Virus record (IMG/VR): IMGVR_UViG_3300003876_000001
Coordinates: 118,980-138,979 of that record
Length of the DNA stretch: 20,000 nucleotides
Reading direction: 5' to 3' (one strand)
Origin: an uncultured virus (IMG/VR IMGVR_UViG_3300003876_000001)
Lineage: Duplodnaviria; Heunggongvirae; Uroviricota; Caudoviricetes
Program-made: the position numbers and the translations under genes
Part shown: positions 2 to 20,000 of the stretch, piece after piece
Layout of the letters: the number at the start of each line of letters is the position of its first letter
Numbering within the stretch: position 1 is the first letter of the stretch
The notes under the pieces: generated by a model
Told to the model about the DNA's origin: nothing
The model's database searches: none
The model's input: only the letters and a program-made list of their open reading frames with translations

Positions 2-718
2 AGTTATCCTTTAGGTCAAATACCCAAACATTTACAACGTCCAGAACTTGACATAATAAAAGAAATGGGTTATTATTGGAACGACCCAAGAGAAGTGATT
101 GACATGTTTGAACAAAAAGTTGCTGAATTTGCAGGTGCAAAATATGGTATTTTAACTGATTGTTGTACAAATGGTATGTTTTTATCATTAAAATATCTAA
201 TGAATATTGGTGAAATAATGGTTGAATGGAATATTCATCCTAAAATAACCATACCTAATAGAACATATGTTTCATTACCTATGTTAATTAATCAAGTAGG
301 ATTAGATTATGAGTTTAAAGATTATGAATGGAGTGGAATTTATCGATTAAATCCTACTAGAGTATATGATGGTGCAGTACGTTGGACTAAAGACATGTAT
401 GTTGGAAATAATGCATTACAGGTTGTATCTTTTCAAATAAAGAAAAGAATACCAATTGGTAAGGGTGGTATTATTTTAACTGATGATAAGGAAGCAGCAA
501 AGATGTTAAAATTAATGAGTTATGATGGTAGAGATCTGACAGTATCATATAATGATTGTAATCATATAAAAACAAAGGGATATCATATGTATATGACACC
601 TGAAGATGCAGCAAGAGGAATAATATTAATGGATAGTGTACCTGAAGAAAATGAAGATAGTGGAAATAGTACGATGTATCCAGATATTGAAGAAATGATA
701 AAAAATATAAGAATATAG
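2..718 (+). CDS. DegT/DnrJ/EryC1/StrS-family PLP-dependent sugar aminotransferase (short form; 5' end lies upstream of the window)
   Basis: The frame is open from position 2 (SYPLGQIPKHLQRPELDIIKEM...), so the ATG at 65 is probably internal. Family motifs: FEQKVAEFAGAKYG, DCCTNG, SFQIKKRIPIGKGG (catalytic-Lys region), GYHMYM. Confidence 0.85.
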   Translation, partial: SYPLGQIPKHLQRPELDIIKEMGYYWNDPREVIDMFEQKVAEFAGAKYGILTDCCTNGMFLSLKYLMNIGEIMVEWNIHPKITIPNRTYVSLPMLINQVGLDYEFKDYEWSGIYRLNPTRVYDGAVRWTKDMYVGNNALQVVSFQIKKRIPIGKGGIILTDDKEAAKMLKLMSYDGRDLTVSYNDCNHIKTKGYHMYMTPEDAARGIILMDSVPEENEDSGNSTMYPDIEEMIKNIRI

Positions 719-735
719 TAAAATAAATATAAAAT

Positions 736-1728
736 ATGAAAAAAGCGTTTATAACAGGAATTAGTGGTCAAGATGGTAGTTATCTTAGTGAATATTTATT
801 ATCACTAGGATATGAAGTACATGGAATGATTAGAAGAAACTCTGTTGCTGAAAACCAACAATATAGGATTGAAGGTTTAAGAAGTAATAAAAATATGTAC
901 GTACATTATGGTGATTTATTAGATCAAACATCAATAGAACGTCTATTAACCGAAATAATGCCCGATGAAATATATAATTTAGGTGCTCAGTCACACGTTA
1001 GAATTAGTTTTGATATACCACAATTTACAGTACAAACAAATGCGTTGGGTGTTGTTAATATATTAGAAGCGTATAAAAGACTTTGCCCTGATGCTAAATT
1101 TTATCAAGCAAGTTCATCTGAAATGTTTGGTTTAACTGTTGAGAATGATAAGTTTCAAAGAGAAACTACATTAATGAATCCAGTATCTCCTTATGGTTGT
1201 GCTAAAGTATTCTCATATAATATGGTTCGTCATTATAGACGTGCTTATAATTTACACGCAACCAACGGAATATTATTTAATCATGAATCACCAAGAAGAG
1301 GAAGTAATTTTGTTACAAATAAAGTAGTTAAAATTGCATGTATGATTAAATTAGGAAAGGCAGATAAACTAGAATTAGGGAATATTGATTCTTATAGAGA
1401 TTGGGGGCATTCAAAAGATTATGTTCGTGCAATGCATAAAGTAATTAATCATGATATTGCAGACGATTTTGTTATATCAACAATGGAAACACATTCAGTT
1501 CGTGAAATGTGTGATGTTGTTTTTAGTTATTTAGATATGAATTATAAAGATTATGTAGTACAAAACCCTAAATTTATTAGACCAGAAGAGTTACCATATC
1601 TAAAGGGTGATTCAACAAAAGCAAGAAATGTTTTAGGTTGGAAACCAGAATATTCATTTGAGATAATGATGCATGAAATGGTTGATCATTGGATGGATGA
1701 ATTACAGGGTATTAAATCGAATAGATAA
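736..1728 (+). CDS. gmd: GDP-mannose 4,6-dehydratase
   Basis: ITGISGQDGSYL, YNLGAQSHVRISF, FYQASSSEMFG, PVSPYGCAK (YxxxK), GILFNHESPRRG, RDWGH are hallmark Gmd motifs. Confidence 0.97.
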   Translation: MKKAFITGISGQDGSYLSEYLLSLGYEVHGMIRRNSVAENQQYRIEGLRSNKNMYVHYGDLLDQTSIERLLTEIMPDEIYNLGAQSHVRISFDIPQFTVQTNALGVVNILEAYKRLCPDAKFYQASSSEMFGLTVENDKFQRETTLMNPVSPYGCAKVFSYNMVRHYRRAYNLHATNGILFNHESPRRGSNFVTNKVVKIACMIKLGKADKLELGNIDSYRDWGHSKDYVRAMHKVINHDIADDFVISTMETHSVREMCDVVFSYLDMNYKDYVVQNPKFIRPEELPYLKGDSTKARNVLGWKPEYSFEIMMHEMVDHWMDELQGIKSNR

Positions 1729-2429
1729 TGAAAATAATAATACCTACATGTGATAAATATCGTAATATATTAGAAGCTAATAAATATACAATGGATAAAT
1801 TTGGCGGTTCAAATTTAGACATTACTATTTTAGGATATAAAAAACCTGAATTTGATATGGGTAATTGGAAGTTTTTTTGTTTGGGTAATGATAATGGTGC
1901 AGATAATTTCACTAATGATATATATAATTTTTTTAAAGATTTTAAAGATGAATATTTTATATATGGTAATGATGATATTGTTGCAGTTGATGAATTAAAT
2001 ATTGAAATGATAAATGAATTTAAAAAATTAATGGATAATGATGACAAAGTAGTAAAAATCTGTTTAACATCTGCTGCACCAAGTGTATATGGTAATGATA
2101 TTTATAAAAATGGGAATGATTATAATTTTATTAAATTACCTAATAATGGGGAATATAGATTATCGTTACATTATGGTGTATGGAGAACATCATATTTTAT
2201 GAAATATTTTGAATTAGGAATTTCTCCTTGGGAATGGGAATTAAGAGATGTTGCAAAAAATGATGGTGCTATCATATTAGGTACTGATAAAAAACATGTT
2301 TTAGATTTTGGGCATATACTTAGAAGGGGTGGTATGATAACGGAAACATGGTATAAATCATTATATACCAATAAACAATTAAATGATGATGATATTCAAT
2401 ATGTAAAAAAAATAATTGAAAACTTATGA
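1728..2429 (+). CDS. Hypothetical protein, possibly glycosyltransferase-like (GT-A fold)
   Basis: N-terminal KIIIPTCD strand, YFIYGNDD (DxD-like) and SPWEWE; translationally coupled within the sugar cluster. Confidence 0.55.
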   Translation: MKIIIPTCDKYRNILEANKYTMDKFGGSNLDITILGYKKPEFDMGNWKFFCLGNDNGADNFTNDIYNFFKDFKDEYFIYGNDDIVAVDELNIEMINEFKKLMDNDDKVVKICLTSAAPSVYGNDIYKNGNDYNFIKLPNNGEYRLSLHYGVWRTSYFMKYFELGISPWEWELRDVAKNDGAIILGTDKKHVLDFGHILRRGGMITETWYKSLYTNKQLNDDDIQYVKKIIENL

Positions 2430-3442
2430 TACTATTAACATTTGGAACAAGACCAGAATATTTGAAAATTAAACCTTTAATTAAAGAGTTTATAAAAAAT
2501 AATATTGATTATAAAATACTATTTACTGGTCAACATTTAAATATTGCTGATTTTAAATCAGATTATGTAATATCAATTAAAGATGGTGAAAATCGTTTAG
2601 ATTCAATAGTTAGTTCAATAATGAATGAATTAACATCTATAATTAGATTAGAACCAACATTAAAATATGTTTTAGTACAAGGCGATACGACATCAGTATT
2701 AGCCGTTGCATTGTCTGCATTTCATCATCAAATAAAAGTAATTCATCTTGAAGCTGGATTAAGAACATTTGATAAGAAAAACCCATATCCAGAAGAAACA
2801 AATAGACGTATAGTGTCATCAATTGCTGATATACATTTATGTCCAACAGATTTATCTAAAACGTACTTAGAAAGAGAAAAAACAGAAGGTGATATATATG
2901 TTGTGGGAAATACAGGATTAGATAATCTATTACCTTGGAAAGAAAAATTAAAAACATTTACAGGTAGCAACGATATTTTAATTACACTCCATAGAAGAGA
3001 AAATCATCATTGGATGAAAGAGTGGTTTTTATTAATAAATGAAATAGCAAAAAAACATAATTATCTTAATTTTATATTTCCAATGCATCCAAACCCAAAA
3101 GTTCAAATAAATAAAGTATTCATTGATGCACCAAACATTAAAATAATTGAACCATTAGATCATGATGAACTATTAGATGTTTTAGTAAATTCAAGATTAG
3201 TTATAACTGATTCAGGTGGGATACAAGAAGAATGTAGCTTTTTAAATAAAATTTGTTTAACTTGCAGAAAAGTAACGGAAAGACCCGAAGCAATAGGATA
3301 TTCTACAAGAATGGTTAAATCACCATTAGAATTACCAGATATATTTGAAAAATATATAAACAATTCAATTATTAAATATGAATCACCATTTGGTGATGGA
3401 CATGCTTCAGAAAAGATAGTAAAAATACTAAAAGAATTATGA
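2426..3442 (+). CDS. wecB: UDP-N-acetylglucosamine 2-epimerase (non-hydrolysing)
   Basis: FGTRPEYLK, FTGQH, VQGDTTS, HLEAGLRT, PYPEETNR, TLHRREN, TDSGGIQEE, TERPE, PFGDGHASEKI. Confidence 0.96.
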   Translation: MILLTFGTRPEYLKIKPLIKEFIKNNIDYKILFTGQHLNIADFKSDYVISIKDGENRLDSIVSSIMNELTSIIRLEPTLKYVLVQGDTTSVLAVALSAFHHQIKVIHLEAGLRTFDKKNPYPEETNRRIVSSIADIHLCPTDLSKTYLEREKTEGDIYVVGNTGLDNLLPWKEKLKTFTGSNDILITLHRRENHHWMKEWFLLINEIAKKHNYLNFIFPMHPNPKVQINKVFIDAPNIKIIEPLDHDELLDVLVNSRLVITDSGGIQEECSFLNKICLTCRKVTERPEAIGYSTRMVKSPLELPDIFEKYINNSIIKYESPFGDGHASEKIVKILKEL

Positions 3443-4218
3443 AAAAAGTATTAGTAATAGGAGATAGTTGTTTGGATGTATTCCAATATGGAAAATGTAA
3501 TAGAATAAGTCCTGAAGCACCAGTACCAATATTTGAACCAACAAATACGGAAAGTAATGTAGGTATGGCTGAAAATGTATTAAATAATTTATTAGCATTG
3601 AATGTTCATGTTGATATTATTACAAACGATTCAGATAAACCTACAAAAGTAAGATATGTTGATGAAGTATCAAATCAAATGCTTTTACGTATAGATACTG
3701 AAGATAAAGTTAAACCATTAAAAAGTTTTTGGGGTAAATTAAAACTAACGCATTGGGATGGTGTTGTTATCTCTGACTATAATAAAGGGTTTTTAGATGA
3801 AGAAATTATATTTAAAATAGTTACATATTGTAAGGGACATAAAATACCAACATTTCTAGATACTAAGAAAAAAATAGGTAGTTGGGCAAATGATATTAAT
3901 TTCATTAAAATTAATGAAAAAGAATATTTGGAAAATGAAGATGAGTTATATGGGTTTAAAAATCATCTTATAACAACACTAGGAAAAGAGGGTGCTAAAC
4001 ATTATGATAAGACATTAGGAACAACTATAATACACCCAATTAAAAACAAATCAGAAGTTCGAGATTTATCAGGAGCTGGTGATACATTTTTAGCTAGTTT
4101 TGTTGCGGATTATCTAGAAAATAACGATATTGCATCTGCAATTAATTTTGCAAACAGATGTGCATCATATGTTGTTACACAAAAGGGGGTTGTTGTTGTA
4201 GATAATGATAAAATTTAA
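3439..4218 (+). CDS. HldE/RfaE kinase domain (D-glycero-manno-heptose-7-phosphate kinase-like, PfkB family), stand-alone
   Basis: VLVIGDSCLD, RISPEAPVP, K.RY...QMLLRID, ISDYNKG, KINEKE, DLSGAGDTF; no C-terminal adenylyltransferase domain. Confidence 0.9.
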   Translation: MKKVLVIGDSCLDVFQYGKCNRISPEAPVPIFEPTNTESNVGMAENVLNNLLALNVHVDIITNDSDKPTKVRYVDEVSNQMLLRIDTEDKVKPLKSFWGKLKLTHWDGVVISDYNKGFLDEEIIFKIVTYCKGHKIPTFLDTKKKIGSWANDINFIKINEKEYLENEDELYGFKNHLITTLGKEGAKHYDKTLGTTIIHPIKNKSEVRDLSGAGDTFLASFVADYLENNDIASAINFANRCASYVVTQKGVVVVDNDKI

Positions 4219-4862
4219 TGTTCAAAATAGGTAATATTATATATGAAGATGAATTAGTTAATCATACTAAGGTTGATTATATTAATTATATTGATATGAA
4301 AAATGGTGGTAATGATTTAAATATACCAACAGATATACCAATATTGTTTGTAGGGTGGAATCAGTTTAAAGTAACACTCAATGATTTCCATGATAAAATA
4401 TCAATTCTAAATAAAGAAATCAAATCAAATCAATTATATTGGGAATTTTCTTTCAATGAAAATAAAGCACAACATGTAGGTGGAATAGAAATGTTTGTTA
4501 GAAATGCACCGTATTATTATTTTAGAGGTAAATATACATATAAAAATATTGATCCCATATTTGATAAAATATCTAATTTAGAAAATTTTAAAAATATACT
4601 ACCTAATGAAAAATTTAATACATTTCAATATAAGGATGAAATGATTTACATATTAGATAATAATAATAATATATTTGGTATTGATTTAAAAATGTATGAA
4701 TATTTTAATTTTAATCTAGATAAATTAACATCTATTCTTATTGATAGAAGTATTACAACAAAACACGATATAGATGGTTCTATCTATCAAAAACAATATA
4801 AAATTTTTCCTTTTTTCGAAGAATTAAAAAGATACCTAGTAGTTTTAATGTTAAAACCTTAG
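4218..4862 (+). CDS. Hypothetical protein
   Basis: 214-aa ORF coupled by a TAATG overlap to the kinase gene; no recognised motif. Confidence 0.8.
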   Translation: MFKIGNIIYEDELVNHTKVDYINYIDMKNGGNDLNIPTDIPILFVGWNQFKVTLNDFHDKISILNKEIKSNQLYWEFSFNENKAQHVGGIEMFVRNAPYYYFRGKYTYKNIDPIFDKISNLENFKNILPNEKFNTFQYKDEMIYILDNNNNIFGIDLKMYEYFNFNLDKLTSILIDRSITTKHDIDGSIYQKQYKIFPFFEELKRYLVVLMLKP

Positions 4863-5429: not shown

Positions 5430-6140
5430 ATGGCAATAGAGAAAAAGAAATCTATGAACGAAACCGTTGATAGAATGAAATACTTGTTCAAATATACGTT
5501 GAATGAGGCTAGTTATACCCTTATTGATGGAATAGAGGAAGATGATAGTATTCCAGAAGAAATCTGGACAGAACCATCATCGGTATCACCTGTATCTCCT
5601 AACAATTCTAATGTTATGGAAGATGAAGAACCACAAATGGATAACGAAGGATTGCCTGTTGAAGAACCTGTACCTGCTGAAGGTGAATTTCCAAAAGAAG
5701 AAATGGGAGTTGAAGACCCTATGGCTATGGATGGTGAAATGAGTATGGAAGAACCAATACCAGAAGAACCAGCACCACCATCAGCAGATGAAATACAAAA
5801 TAATATATTAAAGTCAAGCATATCTGCAATGCAGAAAATGAATGATGAATTAAATAGTTTAGAATCAACATTAGGTATGTTGAATTCAAAGATTGATGGA
5901 TTAAACAAAGAAGTTGAAGAAGTTAGAGAACCAACTAATGTTGAAAAATTAATGTCAAAAAAGGAAGATTCACATCCCTTTTATTATAATTTAAATGATA
6001 TGTGGGATGGTAATTCATTTCAAGCAAGAAGACAAGTTGAAAATAGTGAAGGTATGAAACAAACTGATGATGGTTCATTTGTTGCTGATTTTGATACACT
6101 ACCTAAATACACAGATCAAGAAGTAACTGACAGTTTTTAA
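5430..6140 (+). CDS. Acidic low-complexity/coiled-coil protein, probable prohead core or internal head protein
   Basis: Basic N-terminus ending TLNE, Glu/Pro/Met-rich middle, heptad coiled coil (MQKMNDELNSLESTLGMLNSKIDGLNKEVEEV). Confidence 0.6.
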   Translation: MAIEKKKSMNETVDRMKYLFKYTLNEASYTLIDGIEEDDSIPEEIWTEPSSVSPVSPNNSNVMEDEEPQMDNEGLPVEEPVPAEGEFPKEEMGVEDPMAMDGEMSMEEPIPEEPAPPSADEIQNNILKSSISAMQKMNDELNSLESTLGMLNSKIDGLNKEVEEVREPTNVEKLMSKKEDSHPFYYNLNDMWDGNSFQARRQVENSEGMKQTDDGSFVADFDTLPKYTDQEVTDSF

Positions 6141-6142
6141 TT

Positions 6143-7603
6143 ATGAGAGTACATAAAAAAATAGGCACTAAAGAAAAACTTTTTGAAATGTTCGAAAACG
6201 TTAATAAGATTAAATTAAATGAGGAAATCCACAATACTTCGATTGATGATTTAAAACAATATGATAGACTTGAAGATTCTGAAGGAAATCAATTTTCAAT
6301 ACAAAGTTTTGAAGATGGTCATGTTAATGTAAGGGGTGATAGGGGAGGTAAATTTATTGCAAATAATGAGTTAAAGTATTATAAAAAAAGACCATCAATA
6401 GGTAAATTTGATACAAATGAATCATTTGATTCTCCAAAGGAAAAAGATAAAAAATATTTAGATAAGACTGTTGGTGATGAAAGTTCACAAGTTTCTAAAT
6501 ATGATGATGGTATACGTTATCCAGTAGAAGATAGGTTAAAAGTTAAAGACCCATCATTAGAAAAACTTAAAGGTGATGATGCTCCAATTAAAGAAGCGTT
6601 TGATGAAGATGATCAAGATGTTGTAGATAAAAATTCTGAAGAAACACAATTAGATGTAAATCCTGATGAAGAACCAGTAGATAATGATGATGGTGAAAGT
6701 GCTGAAGAAAAACCAGCGTGGGATGAAAATTTTGGTGATGAACCAGAACCTGATGATATGGAAATGGATACACTCCCACCAGATGAAGCAGCAGAAGATG
6801 CACCAGAATTAGGTGGTGAAATTGAAAATGGTGGTGTTGAACAAATGACAAATACTATGGAAGAACCACATGTTGATCAAATCGAAGGTGGTTTAGCAGA
6901 TGATGCACAACCTAGTGATTTTTGTCCTGTTCAAATTGCTAAAGGTATTCAAGTAGAAATGGAACATACGGATGATCCTCACAAAGCATTAGAAATTGCA
7001 ATGGATCATTTAACCGAAATTTCTGATTACTACGATAGATTAGAAGCTATGGAAGCTGAAGCTAAAGGAATGGAAACAGATATGGGTGCTCCTGAAGATA
7101 GTCTATTAGACCCTTCTAAGCATTGGGTTGATGATTATACACCACAAAATGTTTCAATGAGAGATGAAGAACTAGAAGAGGATTATCCACTTGAAGGTGG
7201 TGACCCTGAAGCTGGTGAAGAAGAATATGAATTTTATGAAAAAGCTAAAAATGGTGAGTTTGAAGATGATGATGAAAAAACAATAGATGAAAATGTAGAT
7301 TCTATTAATGGTATTGATATTAATGGTGTCCCTATTAATAAATATGAAAAATATCTTAATAATGAATTAAGTAATCCATCTAGTAATAAATTTGAAGGGG
7401 GTACTGATGTTTGGGTTTTTGATTTTCCTAAATCAAAATTTGACGAAAATTGGTACAATTCCATGAAACAATATATGGGTTATAGTGATGCTGGTGTTGA
7501 GGGAAATGCTGGTGGTTGGGTTACTAAAGAAAGAAAGGATATTGAAGATGTTGGTGATTATTATAGATTAACAGTAACAATTGAAAGTGTAATGGATATT
7601 TAA
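6143..7603 (+). CDS. Acidic virion-associated protein with DUF5661-like domain
   Basis: QIAKGIQVEMEHTDDPHKALEIAMDHLTEISDYYDRLEAME resembles DUF5661; the N-terminal leader is shared with the next gene. Confidence 0.7.
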   Translation: MRVHKKIGTKEKLFEMFENVNKIKLNEEIHNTSIDDLKQYDRLEDSEGNQFSIQSFEDGHVNVRGDRGGKFIANNELKYYKKRPSIGKFDTNESFDSPKEKDKKYLDKTVGDESSQVSKYDDGIRYPVEDRLKVKDPSLEKLKGDDAPIKEAFDEDDQDVVDKNSEETQLDVNPDEEPVDNDDGESAEEKPAWDENFGDEPEPDDMEMDTLPPDEAAEDAPELGGEIENGGVEQMTNTMEEPHVDQIEGGLADDAQPSDFCPVQIAKGIQVEMEHTDDPHKALEIAMDHLTEISDYYDRLEAMEAEAKGMETDMGAPEDSLLDPSKHWVDDYTPQNVSMRDEELEEDYPLEGGDPEAGEEEYEFYEKAKNGEFEDDDEKTIDENVDSINGIDINGVPINKYEKYLNNELSNPSSNKFEGGTDVWVFDFPKSKFDENWYNSMKQYMGYSDAGVEGNAGGWVTKERKDIEDVGDYYRLTVTIESVMDI

Positions 7604-14731: not shown

Positions 14732-16354
14732 ATGATGGGAGATGAATATACTATTTCACAATATTTAGGTGCTGAATTTCAATTAAAAATTTTATGGCAA
14801 TTAGTAAGTGAACCAGAATTTGCAGAAAAATCAATTCCATTATTAGAAATATCGTATTTTGATGATGCTACATTTAAAAGATTTTTTTCTATAATACAAC
14901 AATATTTTGAATTAAATGGTAAACCACCTAATTTACAAAATAAAAGTATTTTACATGCAATTAGAAAATTCAGTAAAAAAAATGACCCTATTGAAATTGA
15001 TTTATTGGATGCAGTTGCAATCCAATTAAATAATTGGAACGAAAGAGTTTTAAATAAAGAACTTCAACATGATGGTGATACAATTCAAAAGGAAACATTA
15101 AATTTTATTAAACAACAAGAATATAGAAAAATAGCATCCTATATTCAAGGTGAAGTTAAACAAGGTAATAATAGTGATGAATTTTTATTTAATGTTGAAA
15201 ATGACTTAAAGAAAATCGGTGAGATTGGTGATGAAGATGATATGGGTATCGAAATTATGGATAATATTAGTCGAGCACTTACTAAAGAATTTCGTAAACC
15301 AATACCAACAGGTATTAAAGGTATTGATACGTTAACTAATGGTGGTCTCGGTGGTGGTGAGATTGGAATTATATTAGCACCATCAGGTGTTGGTAAATCA
15401 ACAATATTAACATATATTGCAAATACTGCATATAATTTAGGGTTAAATGTTTTACAAATTATTTTTGAAGATAAAGAAGATGATATTAGGAGAAAACATT
15501 TTGCTAAATGGTCTAAAATCCCACTATCTGAAATGGATGATAATCTAGTTAAGGTAAATGATAAAATTATTGATTGGCACAAAGAAAATATATTTGGTAA
15601 ATTAATAATAAAGAAATTTTCGCAGGAAGATACCACAATGCCTAAAGTTAGACAATATGTTAATAGATATAAAAAGAAATTTGGGTTATCGTTTGATATT
15701 ATAATATTAGATTATTTGGATGTCCTAGAACCACATACAAGAGGTTTAGATCAAAATGCTGGTGAACTTCAAATAGTTAAATCATTTGAAGGTATGGCAC
15801 ATGAATTAGATATTCCATGTTGGACTGCACTTCAAACTAATAGAAGTGGATTTGGTTCTGAATTAGTAGATACAGGTCAAATGGGTGGTAATATAAAACG
15901 TGCACAAAAAACACATTTTTTGATGTCTGTTGCAAAAACTCAAGAACAAAAATTAATAGGACAAGCTAATATTGCTATTCTAAAAGCAAGAATGGCAAGT
16001 GATGGACATGTATTTAAAGATTGTATATTTAATAATGATACTATGGAAATAGCATTGACTGATCCAGTTAATGATCCTACTAGAATTAATTTACCTACAA
16101 TTACTGAAGAAAAAATAGATAATTTAAATCAAGAAATAAGTGAAAGATATAAAGCACGTAGTGAAAATGAAGCAGATGAAATAAATAATAGTAATGAAAA
16201 TATTGAACACATTAAACCTATTGCTATTGAAAATGGTAAAGAAATATTGAAAAATCTTCACGAAGGAGAAGATATTGGAGATAAATCTAAAACAGATTTA
16301 ACTGAAATATTAAGACAACAACGTGAAAGTCAAAATGTTATGAAAAATAATTAA
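14732..16354 (+). CDS. DnaB/gp41-like replicative helicase
   Basis: IPTGIKGIDTLTNGGLGGGE, Walker A APSGVGKST, IIFE, Walker B IIILDYLD, PCWTALQTNR, ILKAR. Confidence 0.93.
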   Translation: MMGDEYTISQYLGAEFQLKILWQLVSEPEFAEKSIPLLEISYFDDATFKRFFSIIQQYFELNGKPPNLQNKSILHAIRKFSKKNDPIEIDLLDAVAIQLNNWNERVLNKELQHDGDTIQKETLNFIKQQEYRKIASYIQGEVKQGNNSDEFLFNVENDLKKIGEIGDEDDMGIEIMDNISRALTKEFRKPIPTGIKGIDTLTNGGLGGGEIGIILAPSGVGKSTILTYIANTAYNLGLNVLQIIFEDKEDDIRRKHFAKWSKIPLSEMDDNLVKVNDKIIDWHKENIFGKLIIKKFSQEDTTMPKVRQYVNRYKKKFGLSFDIIILDYLDVLEPHTRGLDQNAGELQIVKSFEGMAHELDIPCWTALQTNRSGFGSELVDTGQMGGNIKRAQKTHFLMSVAKTQEQKLIGQANIAILKARMASDGHVFKDCIFNNDTMEIALTDPVNDPTRINLPTITEEKIDNLNQEISERYKARSENEADEINNSNENIEHIKPIAIENGKEILKNLHEGEDIGDKSKTDLTEILRQQRESQNVMKNN

Positions 16355-16460
16355 ATTATTTATAAAAAAATGGAATTTTTTGTAACCTTTGAGGAATAAA
16401 TCCGTATTTATTATCACACAAAAACAAAAAATAAAAGTTTTAAAATATTTTACAAAATAC

Positions 16461-16491
16461 TTGCATATTAAATTTAAGTATTTTACATTTG
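16461..16491 (+). promoter_or_regulatory. Bacteroidota-type promoter for the ncRNA operon
   Basis: TTG 16461-16463, 20-nt spacer, TACATTTG 16484-16491; about 33 nt before the tRNA-like element. Confidence 0.75.
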
Positions 16492-16524
16492 CAACACCTT
16501 TAAGAAGTAAAGGTAATAAATTAT

Positions 16525-16592
16525 GGGGATGTAGTATAAATTAGTATAGCACCTGTGAGGTGCAGGTATAGGTGTAAGACCTATCAACTCCA
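16525..16592 (+). tRNA. Aberrant tRNA-like RNA (Ala-type acceptor, non-canonical anticodon and T loops)
   Basis: Acceptor GGGGATG/CAACTCC-A (G3:U70, one A-A mismatch), D arm GTAT-AAATTA-GTAT, anticodon arm GCACC-TGTGA-GGTGC, variable AGGT, T arm ATAGG-TGTAAGA-CCTAT. Confidence 0.6.
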
Positions 16593-16606
16593 CTTATTAA
16601 GAAAAC

Positions 16607-16622
16607 GTTCTTTAATATATTG
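16607..16622 (+). promoter_or_regulatory. boxA-like antitermination motif GTTCTTTAATATATTG
   Basis: Resembles rrn boxA (GYTCTTTAA) and lies immediately 5' of the large RNA. Confidence 0.45.
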
Positions 16623-17447
16623 AAAACTTTTGGGGGTGCTTATGCTCCCTGCTGTCTTCGGATAGTAAGTTCATTACCTTCGGGTATTGAAAAGATAAAC
16701 CGAGAAATCGGGATAAGGGTTAGGTGGAAATGCTAATTGTCCACTCTATCGGGTCGCTTGCGACCTCAAATAAGCACTACAATACATCTTCCTTCTTTTG
16801 GGGAGTGCCTAACGGTCTAACCAGATGAAGACATAGATTATGCAGAAAGGACTGCATAGTTGAGTATGAAAATACAATAAATGTAAATGTAGGGTTGATG
16901 TTCATAATTCCTACCAAGGATGAAGGGCAAGCAACCAGTTGGTAACTTAAACCGTAAGGCGAACACAACCATCTTCGGGTGGGGAAATAAGTCAGGAAGG
17001 TTATTAATTGCGGATTGGTATACGCATGGAGTCGTGCAGCATTGATCGTTCAAAAGACGGGCAACTGCATCCTAAACCACGACTTCAAAACTCCGAATTA
17101 GCTGTAAATTTTATAATCTTTTGAATTTAGATCAAAACAGATTTTATATCAATATAAAAGCACAAGTGTTTAGGCGTTGCATTAGAAAGTCGCATAACTC
17201 GCCATTGAGGTGGGGTAAGTCGGTAGCCAATCCGAATATTTGTTGTGGATGTTTATTCTAGTCGATCTAGTTAGTTTGCTCTGAAACGGGTGAGATAGAT
17301 ATGAAACAGCAGTAGAAAATGTAACGATACGATTGGTTAACGTAATTAACTTGCGATGATAGGATAATGTGGGCAACTGCATTGGACAATGAGAGAATAA
17401 GATAATGCTCTCAAGACCTATTGTTAAACTTGTAGTCTCAGAGTTTT
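16623..17447 (+). ncRNA. Large (~825 nt) highly structured ncRNA, GOLLD-like
   Basis: No credible ORF and visibly higher GC than the flanks. Three cUUCGg hairpins (16650-16667, 16670-16691, 16969-16982) plus GAAA/GTAA/GCAA/CTTG tetraloop hairpins. Long-range helices 16636-16643/16770-16777 and 17028-17036/17078-17086; terminal helix 16623-16630/17440-17447. Flanked by tRNA genes. Confidence 0.75.
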
Positions 17448-17549
17448 ATTTAAAAAGAAATTATAGTAGGTAAAAACCTCTTTCAAACTATTGGGTGAAA
17501 ATATTCCCTTTAGTCCCTGAAACGTAACCTACTAAAAATATTTAAGATT

Positions 17550-17636
17550 AGCGAGTTGGAGAAGTTGGTATCTCGCCTGTCTCATAAGCACGGAGTCCCT
17601 TTTGGGTTTACGCTGGTTCGAGTCCAGCACTCGCAA
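17550..17636 (+). tRNA. tRNA-Met/fMet-like (anticodon CAT) with a long variable arm
   Basis: Acceptor AGCGAGT/ACTCGCA-A (A1xA72 mismatch), D arm GAGA-AGTTGGTA-TCTC, anticodon loop CTCATAA (CAT at 17583-17585), 19-nt variable region, T arm GCTGG-TTCGAGT-CCAGC. CCA is not encoded. Confidence 0.85.
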
Positions 17637-17647
17637 CATATAAAATA

Positions 17648-17684
17648 GTTGACAAAACCACCTATGAGAGGTGGTTTTGTCAGC
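17648..17684. other. 16-bp hairpin downstream of the tRNA
   Basis: GTTGACAAAACCACCT-ATGAG-AGGTGGTTTTGTCAGC, fully paired with one G-U. Confidence 0.8.
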
Positions 17685-17747
17685 TAGAAAGCCCTGCTTG
17701 TAAAAATGGTGATTAGGTTCTCCCGAAATTAGTTAATAGTTTGATTT

Positions 17748-17782
17748 AAAAACCCATAGGACATTCCTATGGGTTTTTTTTT
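17748..17782 (+). terminator. Intrinsic (likely bidirectional) terminator closing the RNA operon
   Basis: AAAAACCCATAGGA-CAT-TCCTATGGG followed by T9. Confidence 0.9.
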
Positions 17783-17822
17783 GTTTAATCTAAAATATTC
17801 TGGTTTTCTTTATTTTTATTAT

Positions 17823-17831
17823 GTATTTATA
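17823..17831 (+). promoter_or_regulatory. Putative phage late-promoter motif GTATTTATA
   Basis: Lies after the terminator and about 90 nt upstream of the virion-protein genes. Confidence 0.5.
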
Positions 17832-17922
17832 TACAAATAATCGATATAAACTTCGATTTTTTTTGTAACTCACTGGACGGTCAATGTGTTACGTTAATTA
17901 GAAAGGAAATAAAATATATAAT

Positions 17923-18989: not shown

Positions 18990-20000
18990 ATGGCAATACA
19001 ATTAAGTGATAATTTAAAGATAAATGTAGGTGCACCAATAGATGAAAAATATCTTAGTGCTGCTAATTCACCATATATTGACACTAATGAAGTTAATACC
19101 AAGATTCCTATTGCTCAAAGGTATTTAGGATTGACAGTTAATATTGCTAATGTTGAATATTGGTATGAATTAGGTGTAAGTAATGGTAACTTAGTTATTA
19201 AGGGTTCTGGTGGTGGAAGTGGTTCTGGTGAAAGAATTGAAAAAATTGTTAATCAAGTTGCACACGGTTTTGGAATTGGTGATGTCATCACATATTCTGG
19301 TGGTACATATATTAAAGCAATTGCTGATGGTACACAAGGTGGTGAGGTAATTGGTTTTGTTAGTCAGGTTAATACTATTGATGAATTTATTGTAGTATAT
19401 GCTGGTTATCTTGAGGGTGCTAGTATAAGTGGACTTGTTTTAAATCCAAGTACAACATATTATCTTTCAACAAGTACAGCAGGTGGAATACAATCAACAG
19501 ATCCAACAGTATTTGGTCAAATATCAAAACCAATATTGGTAACTTTTGATAATAATAGTGCATTAATCTATCAATATAGAGGTTTTGTAATATCATCAGG
19601 AGCAACAGGTGGTGGTGTAACATCAGGTATTAGTAGTATGGAAAATATTGGTTTGGGTACTGGTGAAATATTTTCAGGAATAACAAGTGGTATTAATGGT
19701 GAAACTGCACAAATAAGAACATTATTAGGTTCTGGTAATACAAATGTAACAACATCTGGTGACACTGTAATAATTACATCATCAGGTGCTACTGGAATTT
19801 ATAATAGTGCATCACCTTCAAATATTGATGTTGGTGGAATTACAACAGGTACTGTTTTAACAGGTAGAACCGTAGAAAATATTATTGAAGAAATGTTAGT
19901 AACAACATTTTTTCCAACATTAGTTGCACCTGATAATACGTTTGCAGATGATACTACAAATATACAAGAAGTTGGTATAACCGCAGGTACAATTAATTTC
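18990..20000 (+). CDS. Gly/Thr-rich virion structural protein (tail-fibre-like), 3' truncated by the window end
   Basis: ATG at 18990 (MAIQLSDNLKINVGAPIDEKY...RYLGLTVNIANVEYWY...HGFGIGDVI...YYLSTSTAG...) and open to 20000; absent from the ORF track because it has no stop in the window. Confidence 0.85.
   Translation, partial: MAIQLSDNLKINVGAPIDEKYLSAANSPYIDTNEVNTKIPIAQRYLGLTVNIANVEYWYELGVSNGNLVIKGSGGGSGSGERIEKIVNQVAHGFGIGDVITYSGGTYIKAIADGTQGGEVIGFVSQVNTIDEFIVVYAGYLEGASISGLVLNPSTTYYLSTSTAGGIQSTDPTVFGQISKPILVTFDNNSALIYQYRGFVISSGATGGGVTSGISSMENIGLGTGEIFSGITSGINGETAQIRTLLGSGNTNVTTSGDTVIITSSGATGIYNSASPSNIDVGGITTGTVLTGRTVENIIEEMLVTTFFPTLVAPDNTFADDTTNIQEVGITAGTINF

What the first reader, a model, noticed from the sequence alone, without database searches (positions are those of the whole stretch)
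16623..17447. ~825-nt ornate non-coding RNA (GOLLD-like) in a probable Bacteroidota jumbo phage
Seen: a GC-enriched stretch with no credible ORF, packed with stable tetraloop hairpins: TGCTGTC-TTCG-GATAGTA, TTCATTACC-TTCG-GGTATTGAA, CCGA-GAAA-TCGG, GGTCG-CTTG-CGACC, CC-GTAA-GG, CCATC-TTCG-GGTGG. Domain-closing helices are GTGCTTAT/ATAAGCAC and GGAGTCGTG/CACGACTTC, and the ends pair (AAAACTTT/AGAGTTTT). Orientation of the UUCG/GNRA loops fixes the + strand. Established: GOLLD RNAs are ~800-nt phage-associated RNAs of unknown function that typically lie beside tRNA genes; GOLLD and ROOL RNAs have been reported to form RNA-only multimeric cages. Inference: size, tRNA context and the 3' half (ending ...GAGAG..CTCTC...TGTAGTCTCAG) suggest a GOLLD member or a divergent, possibly undescribed relative with its own 5' domains.
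Basis: partly seen in the sequence, partly recalled or inferred. Interest (0 to 1): 0.9.

Follow-up and report, generated by a model that had tools for sequence, protein, structure and literature searches.

The report
Divergent GOLLD RNA in jumbo phage
This gene-free stretch encodes a full-length but unusually divergent copy of GOLLD, a known giant phage RNA that builds RNA-only cages, so it adds a new lineage to a known family and is not a new kind of RNA.

Summary
Window 16602-17447 (+) is a GC-enriched, ORF-free, highly structured RNA gene.

It is a GOLLD RNA. Rfam RF02032 matches 17027-17444 over the whole model at 171.8 bits (cut-off 150). The Rfam model covers only the 3' half. I built a covariance model from the 5' core of 13 canonical GOLLD loci. 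It hits window 16781-16940 (39 bits, rough E 1e-7) and the same place in two relatives. So the 5' half is a diverged canonical GOLLD cap, not a domain of its own.

The lineage is rare in the viral collection searched: four records, in a ~326-kb phage and relatives. It scores 160-181 bits against 227-307 for 15 canonical GOLLDs. It has two extra UUCG hairpins, a shorter P11 region, and different kissing-loop sequences.

It lies after a DnaB-like helicase gene, behind a conserved TTG-N20-TAnnTTTG box, and before a long-arm tRNA(CAU). Contigs from three metatranscriptome libraries match it.

It most likely assembles into a cage like env-38, which is inferred and not shown.

This scan has noted GOLLD many times on other DNA. 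Verdict: new member of a known kind, low to moderate interest.

The parts
14732..16354 (+). DnaB-like replicative helicase gene. This is context: it is the last gene of a replication module with a gp32-like protein, a UvsX/RecA-like protein and a 5'-3' exonuclease.
   Evidence: PHROG 19 at E 6.9e-50 and Pfam DnaB_C. It was used to fetch 29 related loci.
16461..16491 (+). Promoter-like box: TTG (16461-16463), 20 nt, then TACATTTG (16484-16491).
   Evidence: The same TTG...TAnnTTTG arrangement is kept in window, L003, L004 and L005 while the flanks diverge. TAnnTTTG alone is not enriched in the window: 41 found against 35.9 expected. Reading it as a Bacteroidota-type -33/-7 promoter is recalled knowledge.
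16497..16513 (+). Small hairpin just after the box (CCUUUA-AGAAG-UAAAGG). Possibly the 5' terminal stem-loop of the primary transcript.
   Evidence: Read by eye. L003, L004 and L005 each have a different small hairpin at this place. Inference.
16525..16593 (+). tRNA-shaped insert, found in this phage only among the four records. Possible processing signal or decayed tRNA.
   Evidence: Absent from L003, L004 and L005. The MFE fold is a four-way junction. ARAGORN does not call it, and the Rfam tRNA model does not match it at E up to 10. A relative in DNA run X2 carries it (record 25).
16602..16631 (+). Conserved leader of the RNA (AAAACGTTCTTTAA.ATATTGAAAA...).
   Evidence: Nearly invariant in window, L003 and L004. 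Less conserved in L005.
16632..17026 (+). GOLLD 5' domain, the 'cap' domain in env-38 terms.
   Evidence: 122 predicted pairs, 38 with a change on both sides. The canonical 5' core model R1 hits 16781-16940. Same order of motifs as canonical GOLLD.
16632..16649 (+). First hairpin GGGGG[UGCUUAUG]CUCCC. Its loop (16638-16643) is complementary to AUAAGC at 16770-16775, giving a pseudoknot that closes the first subdomain.
   Evidence: The stem covaries in L004 (G-C to A-U) and in L005. Canonical GOLLD has the same arrangement, CGGCC[GCCUAU]GGUCG with GUAGGC; that loop pairing covaries in 2 of 6 pairs (columns 6-11 with 110-115).
16650..16691 (+). Two UUCG-capped hairpins that the canonical GOLLD 5' domain lacks at this place. 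Specific to this lineage.
   Evidence: Present with compensatory changes in L003, L004 and L005. Absent between the first hairpin and the GAAA hairpin in 15 of 15 canonical loci.
16700..16711 (+). GAAA hairpin flanked by GAUAAAC and GGAUAAG. Equivalent to env-38 nt 29-40, whose A34/A35 make intermolecular contact B1.
   Evidence: The motif GATAAAC-stem-GAAA-stem-GGATAAAG is shared with all canonical loci. The stem covaries in L004 and L005. env-38 contacts come from Supplementary Table 2 of PMC12286853. The mapping is by eye.
16781..16940 (+). 5' core block: closing stem CUACA/UGUAG, long hairpin, hairpin 16838-16859, UUGAG, GAAA hairpin 16864-16875, and a hairpin with loop UACCAA.
   Evidence: R1 gives 39 bits, rough E 1.1e-7, model 1-172 of 172. 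In the model-fitted alignment of 14 sequences, 96.3% of cells pair, 40 of 47 pairs change on both sides, and 0 of 500 shuffles reach this.
16912..16917 (+). Loop UACCAA, complementary to loop UUGGUA at 17015-17020. This is the position of the env-38 intermolecular kissing loop B4.
   Evidence: One search finds a 6-nt perfect complement at the homologous loops. Canonical loci pair AUCCCU with AGGGAT-type loops, L038 pairs AUCUCU with AGAGAU, and L036/L037 pair CUGUCA with UGACAG. Shuffle test: loops only, 33 of 2000 reach 6 nt; whole regions, 447 of 2000.
17010..17025 (+). Last hairpin of the 5' domain, GCG[GAUUGGUAUA]CGC, with loop UUGGUA (17015-17020).
   Evidence: Invariant in window, L003 and L004. 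The partner loop is described in the row above.
17027..17444 (+). GOLLD 3' domain, the conserved half that Rfam models.
   Evidence: RF02032: 171.8 bits, E 5e-47, model 1-416 of 416. 119 pairs, 25 with a change on both sides, in the three relatives.
17087..17155 (+). AU-rich variable linker, equivalent to the disordered env-38 linker 497-538. It holds no tRNA here.
   Evidence: It aligns to the unstructured, low-confidence part of the Rfam model. ARAGORN finds nothing there. The env-38 linker is described in passages of PMC12286853.
17175..17183 (+). 5' strand of the Rfam pseudoknot (CGUUGCAUU). It pairs with AAUGUAACG at 17318-17326.
   Evidence: Marked [[ ]] in the Rfam alignment. One pair changes from C-G to A-U in L003 (columns 155/297).
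17258..17270 (+). Hairpin CUAG[UCGAU]CUAG. Equivalent to the env-38 hairpin whose loop makes the self-kissing contact B8 (G656-C657).
   Evidence: It aligns to Rfam positions 'agcccGCAAggcuu'. The window has CG inside the palindrome UCGA, while L003 and L004 have GC. The paper reports GC/CG switching in loop L21a (passage). The mapping is by eye.
17550..17637 (+). tRNA with anticodon CAU, a long variable arm and an unpaired 1:72 position, 103 nt after GOLLD.
   Evidence: ARAGORN. Rfam tRNA 42.5 bits.
17748..17786 (+). Terminator-like hairpin followed by a T run. Likely the end of the GOLLD-tRNA transcription unit.
   Evidence: 14-pair stem, then TTTTGTTTAA. 2 sites found in the region against 0.8 expected.

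Best explanation
Window 16602-17447 (+) is the gene of a full-length GOLLD RNA of about 820-845 nt, carried by a ~326-kb phage.

Shown:
- Its 3' half is the conserved GOLLD 3' domain.
- Its 5' half is a diverged version of the canonical GOLLD 5' (cap) domain.
- The two halves are joined through an AU-rich linker placed as in env-38.

Inferred:
- It is transcribed from its own conserved promoter-like box (16461-16491), together with a tRNA-shaped insert upstream and a tRNA(CAU) downstream, up to the terminator at 17748-17786.
- The flanking tRNA-like elements may let RNase P and RNase Z trim the ends.
- Like env-38 (14-mer) and the S. agalactiae GOLLD (12-mer), it assembles with copies of itself into a closed RNA-only cage, with the linker inside. 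The contacts would be A-minor contacts from GNRA-type loops plus loop-loop kissing.

I give about 0.97 to GOLLD membership and about 0.65 to cage formation. What the cage does for the phage is unknown for the whole family.
For: - Rfam RF02032 matches 17027-17444 (+) end to end at 171.8 bits, above the cut-off of 150.
- Model R1 was built from the 5' core of 13 canonical GOLLD loci, none from this lineage. Its best hit in each source is at the syntenic place: window 16781-16940 (39 bits, rough E 1.1e-7), L004 (34 bits), L003 (27.4 bits). The best other hit scores 16.3 bits.
- In the model-fitted alignment of 14 sequences, 96.3% of cells pair and 40 of 47 pairs change on both sides. 0 of 500 shuffles reach this, and slid controls give at most 17.
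- Motifs are shared in the same order with canonical GOLLD and with the env-38 sequence printed in the paper's supplement: a first hairpin whose loop pairs downstream, GAUAAAC-hairpin(GAAA)-GGAUAAAG, and UUGAG-hairpin(GNRA-like)-AAUAA.
- The layout matches env-38. The window has a 5' part of 395-425 nt, then a 3' part of 418 nt with a linker about 60 nt into it. env-38 has 1-420, 421-833, and a linker at 497-538.
- Within the lineage there are 38 + 25 pairs with changes on both sides. L005 adds more.
- Loops that make intermolecular contacts in env-38 are kept: GAAA 16704-16707, GAAA 16868-16871, the A-rich loop 17051-17055, GCAA 17373-17376, and a palindromic loop UCGA at 17262-17265.
- The two loops at the B4 kissing position are complementary (UACCAA/UUGGUA) although both differ from the canonical pair.
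- Contigs from three metatranscriptome libraries of three studies match 16640-17440 at 85-99%. One of them carries paired changes that keep two pairs of the first 3' helix: 17044 G>A with 17062 C>T, and 17047 C>T with 17059 G>A. The pairs are read from the alignment.
- Context is phage, with a tRNA beside the RNA.
Against: - The Rfam score is only 22 bits over the cut-off and far below the 227-307 bits of 15 canonical loci.
- Plain sequence methods do not link the 5' half to canonical GOLLD: nhmmer gave nothing and a profile HMM gave nothing. The link rests on one custom model whose E-values are rough.
- The lineage has only three full sequences and one fragment, so covariation counts are small.
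- Quaternary structure is inferred by eye from printed contact tables.
- The 6-nt kissing complement is perfect only in the window. L003 and L004 reach 4-5 pairs with a wobble, read by eye. 7 of 15 canonical loci also lack a perfect 6-mer. With whole regions shuffled, 447 of 2000 reach 6 nt.
- The loop equivalent to env-38 L21b has no GC palindrome in L004.
- The P11 region is about 40 nt shorter than in env-38 and two hairpins are added, so stoichiometry could differ.
- RNA-library contigs can come from contaminating DNA. No silent control stretch could be laid.
- No transcript ends are known.
Confidence: 0.8

Rival explanations
1. It is a GOLLD homologue, but the remodelled cap (two added UUCG hairpins, shortened P11 region, changed kissing loops) gives a different assembly. 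That could be another stoichiometry, an open ring, or a monomer acting as a scaffold or decoy in the tRNA-processing or replication context.
For: Differences in 5'-domain elements go with different stoichiometry in solved GOLLDs: 12-mer against 14-mer, and the 3' domain alone is polymorphic (review passages). The window lacks about 40 nt of the canonical P11 region and adds two hairpins. The L21b-like loop is not palindromic in L004. The gene sits in a replication module, about 100 kb from the phage's main tRNA island.
Against: Most loops that make contacts in env-38 are kept, and the B4 loops stay complementary. Both domains and the linker are in the canonical order.
Confidence: 0.15
2. The stretch holds two separate RNA genes: an independent structured RNA (16602-17026), and a cap-less GOLLD (17027-17444).
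For: Rfam matches only the 3' half. Earlier notes of this scan, unchecked here, describe cap-less GOLLDs and separate folded stretches before GOLLD genes.
Against: The 5' half is homologous to the 5' domain that is covalently part of env-38. No promoter-like or terminator-like site lies between the halves. RNA-library contigs bridge the junction: X18 record 18 spans 16911-17243 and X11 record 5 spans 16905-17022.
Confidence: 0.03
3. It is not a stable RNA gene at all. It could be a protein-coding or cis-regulatory region, or an intron, that resembles GOLLD by chance.
For: Short ORFs exist on the minus strand (63-71 aa).
Against: No frame is open beyond 90 codons, and none is kept in L003 or L004. 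The Rfam E-value is 5e-47. No intron or other family reaches threshold. Compensatory changes run throughout.
Confidence: 0.01

Closest known systems
GOLLD RNA, env-38 type (Rfam RF02032; 833 nt; D7 14-mer cage, listed as PDB 9MEE in the review PMC12990946; Kretsch et al., Nature 2025, PMC12286853)
   Same: - Two-domain layout of nearly the same size.
- Full-length Rfam match of the 3' domain.
- The 5' core is recognised by a model built from env-38-type sequences.
- The AU-rich linker is in the same place.
- Shared features: first hairpin with loop pseudoknot, GAAA hairpin in GAUAAAC/GGAUAAAG, GNRA-type and A-rich donor loops, self-complementary loop at the L21a position.
- Phage context next to a tRNA with anticodon CAU. 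env-38 was found downstream of a Met-tRNA (passage).
   Different: - About 130 bits lower Rfam score than env-type loci.
- No detectable primary-sequence similarity in the 5' half.
- Two extra UUCG hairpins after the first hairpin.
- P11 region about 40 nt shorter.
- Kissing loops UACCAA/UUGGUA in place of AUCCC/GGGAU.
- CG in place of GC in the L21a-like loop.
- A 30-nt conserved leader.
- Sits after a helicase gene and not inside a tRNA array.
Streptococcus agalactiae GOLLD (700 nt; 12-mer, listed as PDB 9L0R; known to me only from passages of the review PMC12990946)
   Same: A GOLLD with a reduced 5' domain, lacking part of the P9-P11 elements. This shows that trimmed caps still cap a cage. 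It also has a kissing loop between two 5'-domain loops (L10-L12').
   Different: Bacterial chromosomal or prophage origin in Firmicutes. It is shorter overall, while the window RNA keeps the full length by adding other hairpins. I did not see its sequence.
ROOL RNA (Rfam RF03087)
   Same: A large phage-associated RNA near tRNAs that forms RNA-only cages (passages).
   Different: Unrelated sequence and fold. There is no ROOL match in the window at Rfam's threshold.

Membership tests
GOLLD RNA (Rfam RF02032) | Match to the family covariance model (conserved 3' region) at or above the curated gathering score. | tested here: met
   171.8 bits against 150, model 1-416 of 416, + strand, E 5e-47. Relatives score 181 bits (L003) and 160.2 bits (L004).
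GOLLD RNA (Rfam RF02032) | Long-range pseudoknot of the 3' region (the [[ ]] pairs in the Rfam consensus). | tested here: met
   17175-17183 pairs with 17318-17326 in 9 of 9 positions. One pair changes on both sides in L003.
GOLLD RNA (Rfam RF02032) | 5' domain of the canonical (env-38) type, covalently upstream of the 3' region. | tested here: met
   Model R1, from 13 canonical loci, hits 16781-16940 at 39 bits with rough E 1e-7. The best other hit in the window scores 16.3 bits. Motif order is shared. Only the core (172 positions) was modelled. The first subdomain and the P11 region were compared by eye.
GOLLD RNA (Rfam RF02032) | Variable, unstructured linker after the first helix of the 3' region. 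| tested here: met
   The AU-rich stretch 17087-17155 aligns to the low-confidence linker columns. It diverges in L004.
GOLLD RNA (Rfam RF02032) | Phage or prophage context, often beside tRNA genes. | tested here: met
   Virus record. Phage replication genes. tRNA 103 nt downstream. Relatives without GOLLD have tRNAs in this slot.
GOLLD RNA (Rfam RF02032) | Self-assembly into an RNA-only multimeric cage. | not testable with these tools
   Only sequence-level agreement of contact loops with the env-38 tables.
GOLLD RNA (Rfam RF02032) | Expressed as a stable RNA, with expression rising during phage lysis in the one system studied. | tested here: inconclusive
   Contigs of three metatranscriptome libraries match 16640-17440 at 85-99%. 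DNA carry-over is not excluded, and no ends or strand are known.
ROOL, OLE, group I/II introns, RNase P, tmRNA, rRNA | Match to the Rfam model at its gathering score. | tested here: not met
   No such match anywhere in the window. In 16350-17900 at E up to 10 there are only chance-level hits far below the cut-offs.

The most novel reading that the evidence does not exclude
This marine-sediment and vent jumbo-phage lineage carries a remodelled GOLLD. Its cap (two added UUCG hairpins, trimmed P11) and its own kissing-loop pair (UACCAA/UUGGUA, with a CG-type L21a-like loop) would give a cage of different stoichiometry. That cage would assemble only with its own kind, so loop sequences would act as a lineage-specific assembly address. 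tRNA-shaped elements on both sides would set the RNA's ends through RNase P and RNase Z.
Probability: 0.25. Interest if true: 0.45.

Novelty: new member of a known kind. Interest (0 to 1): 0.27.

Why it matters
The family, its phage and tRNA context, and its cage structure are already described, so this does not open a new question. It has modest value in four ways.

- It shows GOLLD in a ~326-kb phage lineage with a probable Bacteroidota host. GOLLD was not found in the 151 genomes sampled from the phylum of the Prolixibacteraceae MAG (that search had no positive control).
- The lineage sits only 10-31 bits above Rfam's cut-off, so more distant GOLLDs are probably being missed.
- Rfam models only the 3' half. 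The 400-nt 'unknown structured RNA' just upstream of a GOLLD hit is the cap domain and should not be scored as a new RNA.
- The concerted change of both kissing loops across lineages is a natural experiment on what holds the cage together. It offers variants for structural work on stoichiometry.

Tried and rejected
- blastn of 16400-17700 against 50,697 phage records found no match.
- nhmmer with the window's 5' half found only its own lineage: L002/L042, L003/L039, L004, and L005 as a fragment. One meaningless hit at E 9.7 also appeared.
- A profile HMM of 12 canonical 5' domains found nothing in the window (best E 6.7, elsewhere). Sequence alone does not link the halves; only the covariance model did.
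- An exact 21-mer from the 5' core found only the same three viral contigs, and one metagenome contig that is the L004 contig.
- I looked for hidden GOLLDs in the other 25 helicase-related loci. None reaches Rfam's gathering score. The apparent 850-nt gaps are filled by the longer helicase ORF, other ORFs and tRNAs.
- TAnnTTTG is not enriched in the window (41 found, 35.9 expected, 36 of 200 shuffles as high). The sigma-70 scan gave 6 sites against 7.1 expected. Only the positional conservation of the box counts.
- GOLLD was sought in the Prolixibacteraceae MAG (0 of 1) and in 151 genomes of its phylum (0 of 151). No control genome rang, so this says only 'not found in those searched'.
- RNA libraries gave no cover of 16450-16633 or 17462-17800. 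This proves nothing, because these flanks are also less conserved. RNA contig ends did not coincide between studies, so they give no hint of transcript ends.
No habitat claim is made from them.
- The original GOLLD paper (Weinberg 2009) could not be read. The PMC id I recalled is not held, so what I say of it comes from later papers' passages.
- A literature search for long-arm tRNAs with a CAU anticodon in phages showed nothing relevant in its listing.
- This scan's notes hold nothing on this genome or sequence.
- The helix between the two ends of the RNA is kept only as a possibility.
Full report
**What is there**

The window is the last 20 kb of a 138,979-base virus record that CheckV rates 42% complete. 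A second record carries an identical helicase gene and the same GOLLD score, and is 325,854 bases long. So the phage is of jumbo size.

The genes before the finding form a phage replication module: a gp32-like protein, a UvsX/RecA-like protein, a 5'-3' exonuclease, and a DnaB-like helicase at 14732-16354. Between the helicase gene and the next long ORF (17923) no frame is open for more than 90 codons on either strand. The same holds for the two full-length relatives.

GC is 0.391 in 16604-17447 against 0.28 elsewhere. The + strand folds to -225.9 kcal/mol (z -3.19). The - strand folds to -175.8 (z -1.71).

**Identity of the 3' half**

Rfam's GOLLD model (RF02032) matches 17027-17444 on the + strand from model position 1 to 416. 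The score is 171.8 bits against a gathering score of 150, with E 5e-47. Nothing else in the window reaches a curated threshold except a tRNA at 17550-17637. A permissive scan of 16350-17900 gave only chance-level hits.

**Relatives**

The helicase protein fetched 29 viral loci. GOLLD at or above the threshold is present in three of them:
- L002, the same phage as the window.
- L003, 181 bits.
- L004, 160.2 bits.

L005 ends 144 nt into the RNA but clearly belongs to the lineage (nhmmer E 2.2e-8; alignment). The other 25 loci have no GOLLD at the threshold. In them the slot after the helicase holds a longer helicase ORF, other ORFs and tRNA genes.

An exact 21-mer from the 5' core found only the same contigs in the viral and metagenome collections. 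So the lineage is rare in those collections.

A conserved-motif scan gave 17 loci. Two lie on contigs I already had. All 15 others are GOLLDs scoring 227-307 bits. That pattern favours sequences close to the Rfam consensus, so these 15 are a 'canonical' sample and not an unbiased one. The env-38 sequence printed in the supplement of PMC12286853 is of this canonical type.

**The 5' half**

Rfam models only the 3' region. The literature passages I read say the 3' region is universally conserved and the 5' region less so. Plain sequence searches did not connect the window's 5' half with canonical 5' halves.

By eye, the two share a series of elements in the same order:
- A first hairpin whose loop is complementary to a segment about 130 nt downstream. 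The window has GGGGG[UGCUUAUG]CUCCC with AUAAGC. Canonical loci have CGGCC[GCCUAU]GGUCG with GUAGGC, where 2 of the 6 loop pairs covary.
- GAUAAAC-hairpin(GAAA)-GGAUAAAG.
- A closing stem around a long hairpin, a second hairpin, UUGAG, a GNRA-like hairpin, and AAUAA.
- A hairpin with a large loop.
- A last hairpin just before the 3' domain.

To test this, I built a covariance model (R1: 172 positions, 47 pairs) from the core block of 13 of the 15 canonical loci. I left out L035 and L045, which read the same as L033 and L032 in alignment A2.

With filters off, R1's best hit in each source lies at the syntenic place:
- Window 16781-16940: 39 bits, rough E 1.1e-7.
- L004: 34 bits.
- L003: 27.4 bits.
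- The best other hit scores 16.3 bits.

Fourteen matches were aligned to the model; L003 fell below E 0.001 with default filters. In that alignment, 96.3% of cells form standard pairs and 40 of 47 pairs change on both sides. No shuffle of 500 reaches this, and slid controls give at most 17. The alignment is fitted to the model, which favours the structure.

So the 5' half is a diverged canonical GOLLD cap domain. It differs in two ways. Two UUCG-capped hairpins (16650-16691) are inserted after the first hairpin. The region equivalent to P11 (16938-17009) is about 40 nt shorter than in env-38.

**Structure within the lineage**

Across window, L003 and L004, RNAalifold predicts 122 pairs in the 5' half, 38 with changes on both sides. 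In the 3' half it predicts 119 pairs, 25 with changes on both sides. L005 adds further compensated stems. The Rfam pseudoknot (17175-17183 with 17318-17326) pairs at 9 of 9 positions and has one compensated pair in L003.

It has no change on both sides. Its 3' strand overlaps Rfam's last hairpin and could instead pair with 17088-17096. I leave it open.

**How it probably works**

env-38 GOLLD (833 nt) forms a D7 14-mer cage. The 5' region (1-420) forms the caps, the 3' region (421-833) forms the rings, and the linker 497-538 is disordered inside (passages). A 700-nt S. agalactiae GOLLD forms a 12-mer, and cap elements influence stoichiometry (review passages).

I mapped the contact tables of env-38 onto the window by eye, through the Rfam and R1 alignments. 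The donor loops are kept:
- GAAA 16704-16707 (contact B1).
- GAAA 16868-16871 (B3).
- The A-rich loop 17051-17055 (B6).
- GCAA 17373-17376 (B10).

The hairpin equivalent to the env-38 self-kissing loop (B8, G656-C657) reads CUAG[UCGAU]CUAG in the window and CUAG[GCAU]CUAG in L003 and L004. That is a CG against GC switch, of the kind the paper reports for loop L21a.

At the position of the B4 kissing loop (env-38 410-414 GGGAU with 253-257 AUCCC), the window has UUGGUA (17015-17020) and UACCAA (16912-16917). A script found a perfect 6-nt complement at the homologous loops in these cases:
- The window.
- 5 canonical loci, AUCCCU with AGGGAU.
- L038, AUCUCU with AGAGAU.
- L036 and L037, CUGUCA with UGACAG.

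It did not find one in 7 of the 15 canonical loci, nor in L003 or L004. By eye, those two reach 4-5 pairs including a wobble. For the window alone, 33 of 2000 loop-only shuffles reach 6 nt, against 447 of 2000 whole-region shuffles. The concerted change of both loops between lineages is therefore suggestive and not proven.

The loop equivalent to L21b is not palindromic in L004.

Taken together, I think a cage like env-38's is the most likely behaviour (about 0.65). A different stoichiometry or assembly is the main alternative.

**Transcription unit**

Upstream, all four lineage members keep TTG, 20 nt, TAnnTTTG (window 16461-16491), while the surrounding sequence diverges. From memory, this is the shape of Bacteroidota housekeeping promoters. 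The motif alone is not enriched in the window. Each member has a different small hairpin right after the box.

Only the window, and a relative seen in DNA run X2, has a 69-nt tRNA-shaped insert (16525-16593). Neither ARAGORN nor the Rfam tRNA model recognises it. A tRNA(CAU) with a long variable arm follows at 17550-17637, and a terminator-like hairpin at 17748-17786.

Co-transcription and trimming by tRNA-processing enzymes is an inference. It agrees with the suggestion in PMC5737381 that such RNAs may be co-transcribed with tRNAs (passage).

**Expression and habitat**

One run holds the whole stretch and may be its source (hydrothermal vent metagenome). Nineteen others, in ten further studies, hold small shares.

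Of the four runs I laid, contigs of three metatranscriptome libraries from three studies match 16640-17440 at 85-99%. Some bridge the junction between the 5' and 3' halves. One DNA run also matches.

One RNA-library contig carries 17044 G>A with 17062 C>T, and 17047 C>T with 17059 G>A. These changes keep two pairs of the first 3' helix as aligned. This is a hint of expression of relatives. It is not proof: DNA carry-over is possible, and no silent control could be laid.

**Host**

The promoter box is one clue. The other is a GDP-mannose 4,6-dehydratase gene (736-1728), whose best genome match is 72% in a Prolixibacteraceae MAG, with the next at 51%. That contig is only 9.4 kb and could itself be viral. 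GOLLD was not found in that MAG or in 151 genomes sampled from its phylum, but no control rang in that search.

**Comparison and verdict**

This is a member of the GOLLD family: every sequence-level defining feature that I could test is met. It is a divergent lineage with a remodelled cap, in a jumbo phage with a probable Bacteroidota host.

GOLLD's variable 5' domain, phage and tRNA context, and cages are all in print. This scan's own notes list GOLLD in over a thousand genomes (unchecked notes, none on this DNA). I therefore rate it a new member of a known kind, with low to moderate interest.

Supplementary alignments of the Nature paper (the zip file) were not opened. They might already include this lineage.

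Noticed in passing
window 17550-17637; own genome C1 20885-20969 (-) and 23102-23188 (-): Three related tRNAs of 85-88 nt have anticodon CAU, a long variable arm (class-II shape), and an unpaired 1:72 position (A.A, C.U, U.U) in ARAGORN's drawings. Similar long tRNA(CAU) genes follow the helicase gene in related phages that lack GOLLD (L011, L016, L021). A class-II tRNA reading AUG or AUA would be unusual. A literature search listing showed nothing relevant.
   Followed up: partly
window 16525-16593: A tRNA-shaped element (four-way junction by MFE) sits between the promoter-like box and GOLLD. It has a 7-nt 'anticodon' loop UGAGGUG and no T-loop consensus. It is absent from L003, L004 and L005 but present in a relative in DNA run X2. 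tRNA finders do not call it.
   Followed up: partly
L004 about 6010-6150; L009 7696-7831: tRNA-like genes with insertions of about 60 nt. Rfam tRNA scores 34 bits over 136 nt in L009. L004 has matching acceptor and T-arm halves around a long insert but is not called by any tool. They may be intron-bearing or split tRNAs.
   Followed up: no
window 19990-20000 and L002 end: The window's record and the 325,854-base record both stop about 3.65 kb after the helicase gene, within about 10 bases of each other. This could be a shared assembly break or a real genome end.
   Followed up: no
window 65-4862: A sugar-nucleotide gene cluster sits in a phage: DegT-type aminotransferase, GDP-mannose 4,6-dehydratase, UDP-GlcNAc 2-epimerase, PfkB-type kinase. 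The dehydratase is 72% identical to a gene on a 9.4-kb contig of a Prolixibacteraceae MAG, and the next best match is 51%.
   Followed up: partly
own genome C1 13144-34391: The phage fragment carries 22 further tRNA genes in an island about 100 kb away from GOLLD. So this GOLLD is not inside the main tRNA array, which is where GOLLDs are usually described.
   Followed up: no
window 17650-17682: A 14-pair hairpin lies right after the tRNA. It reads as a terminator on the minus strand, and on the plus strand as a stem without a clear T run. A further conserved-looking stretch lies between it and the terminator at 17748.
   Followed up: no
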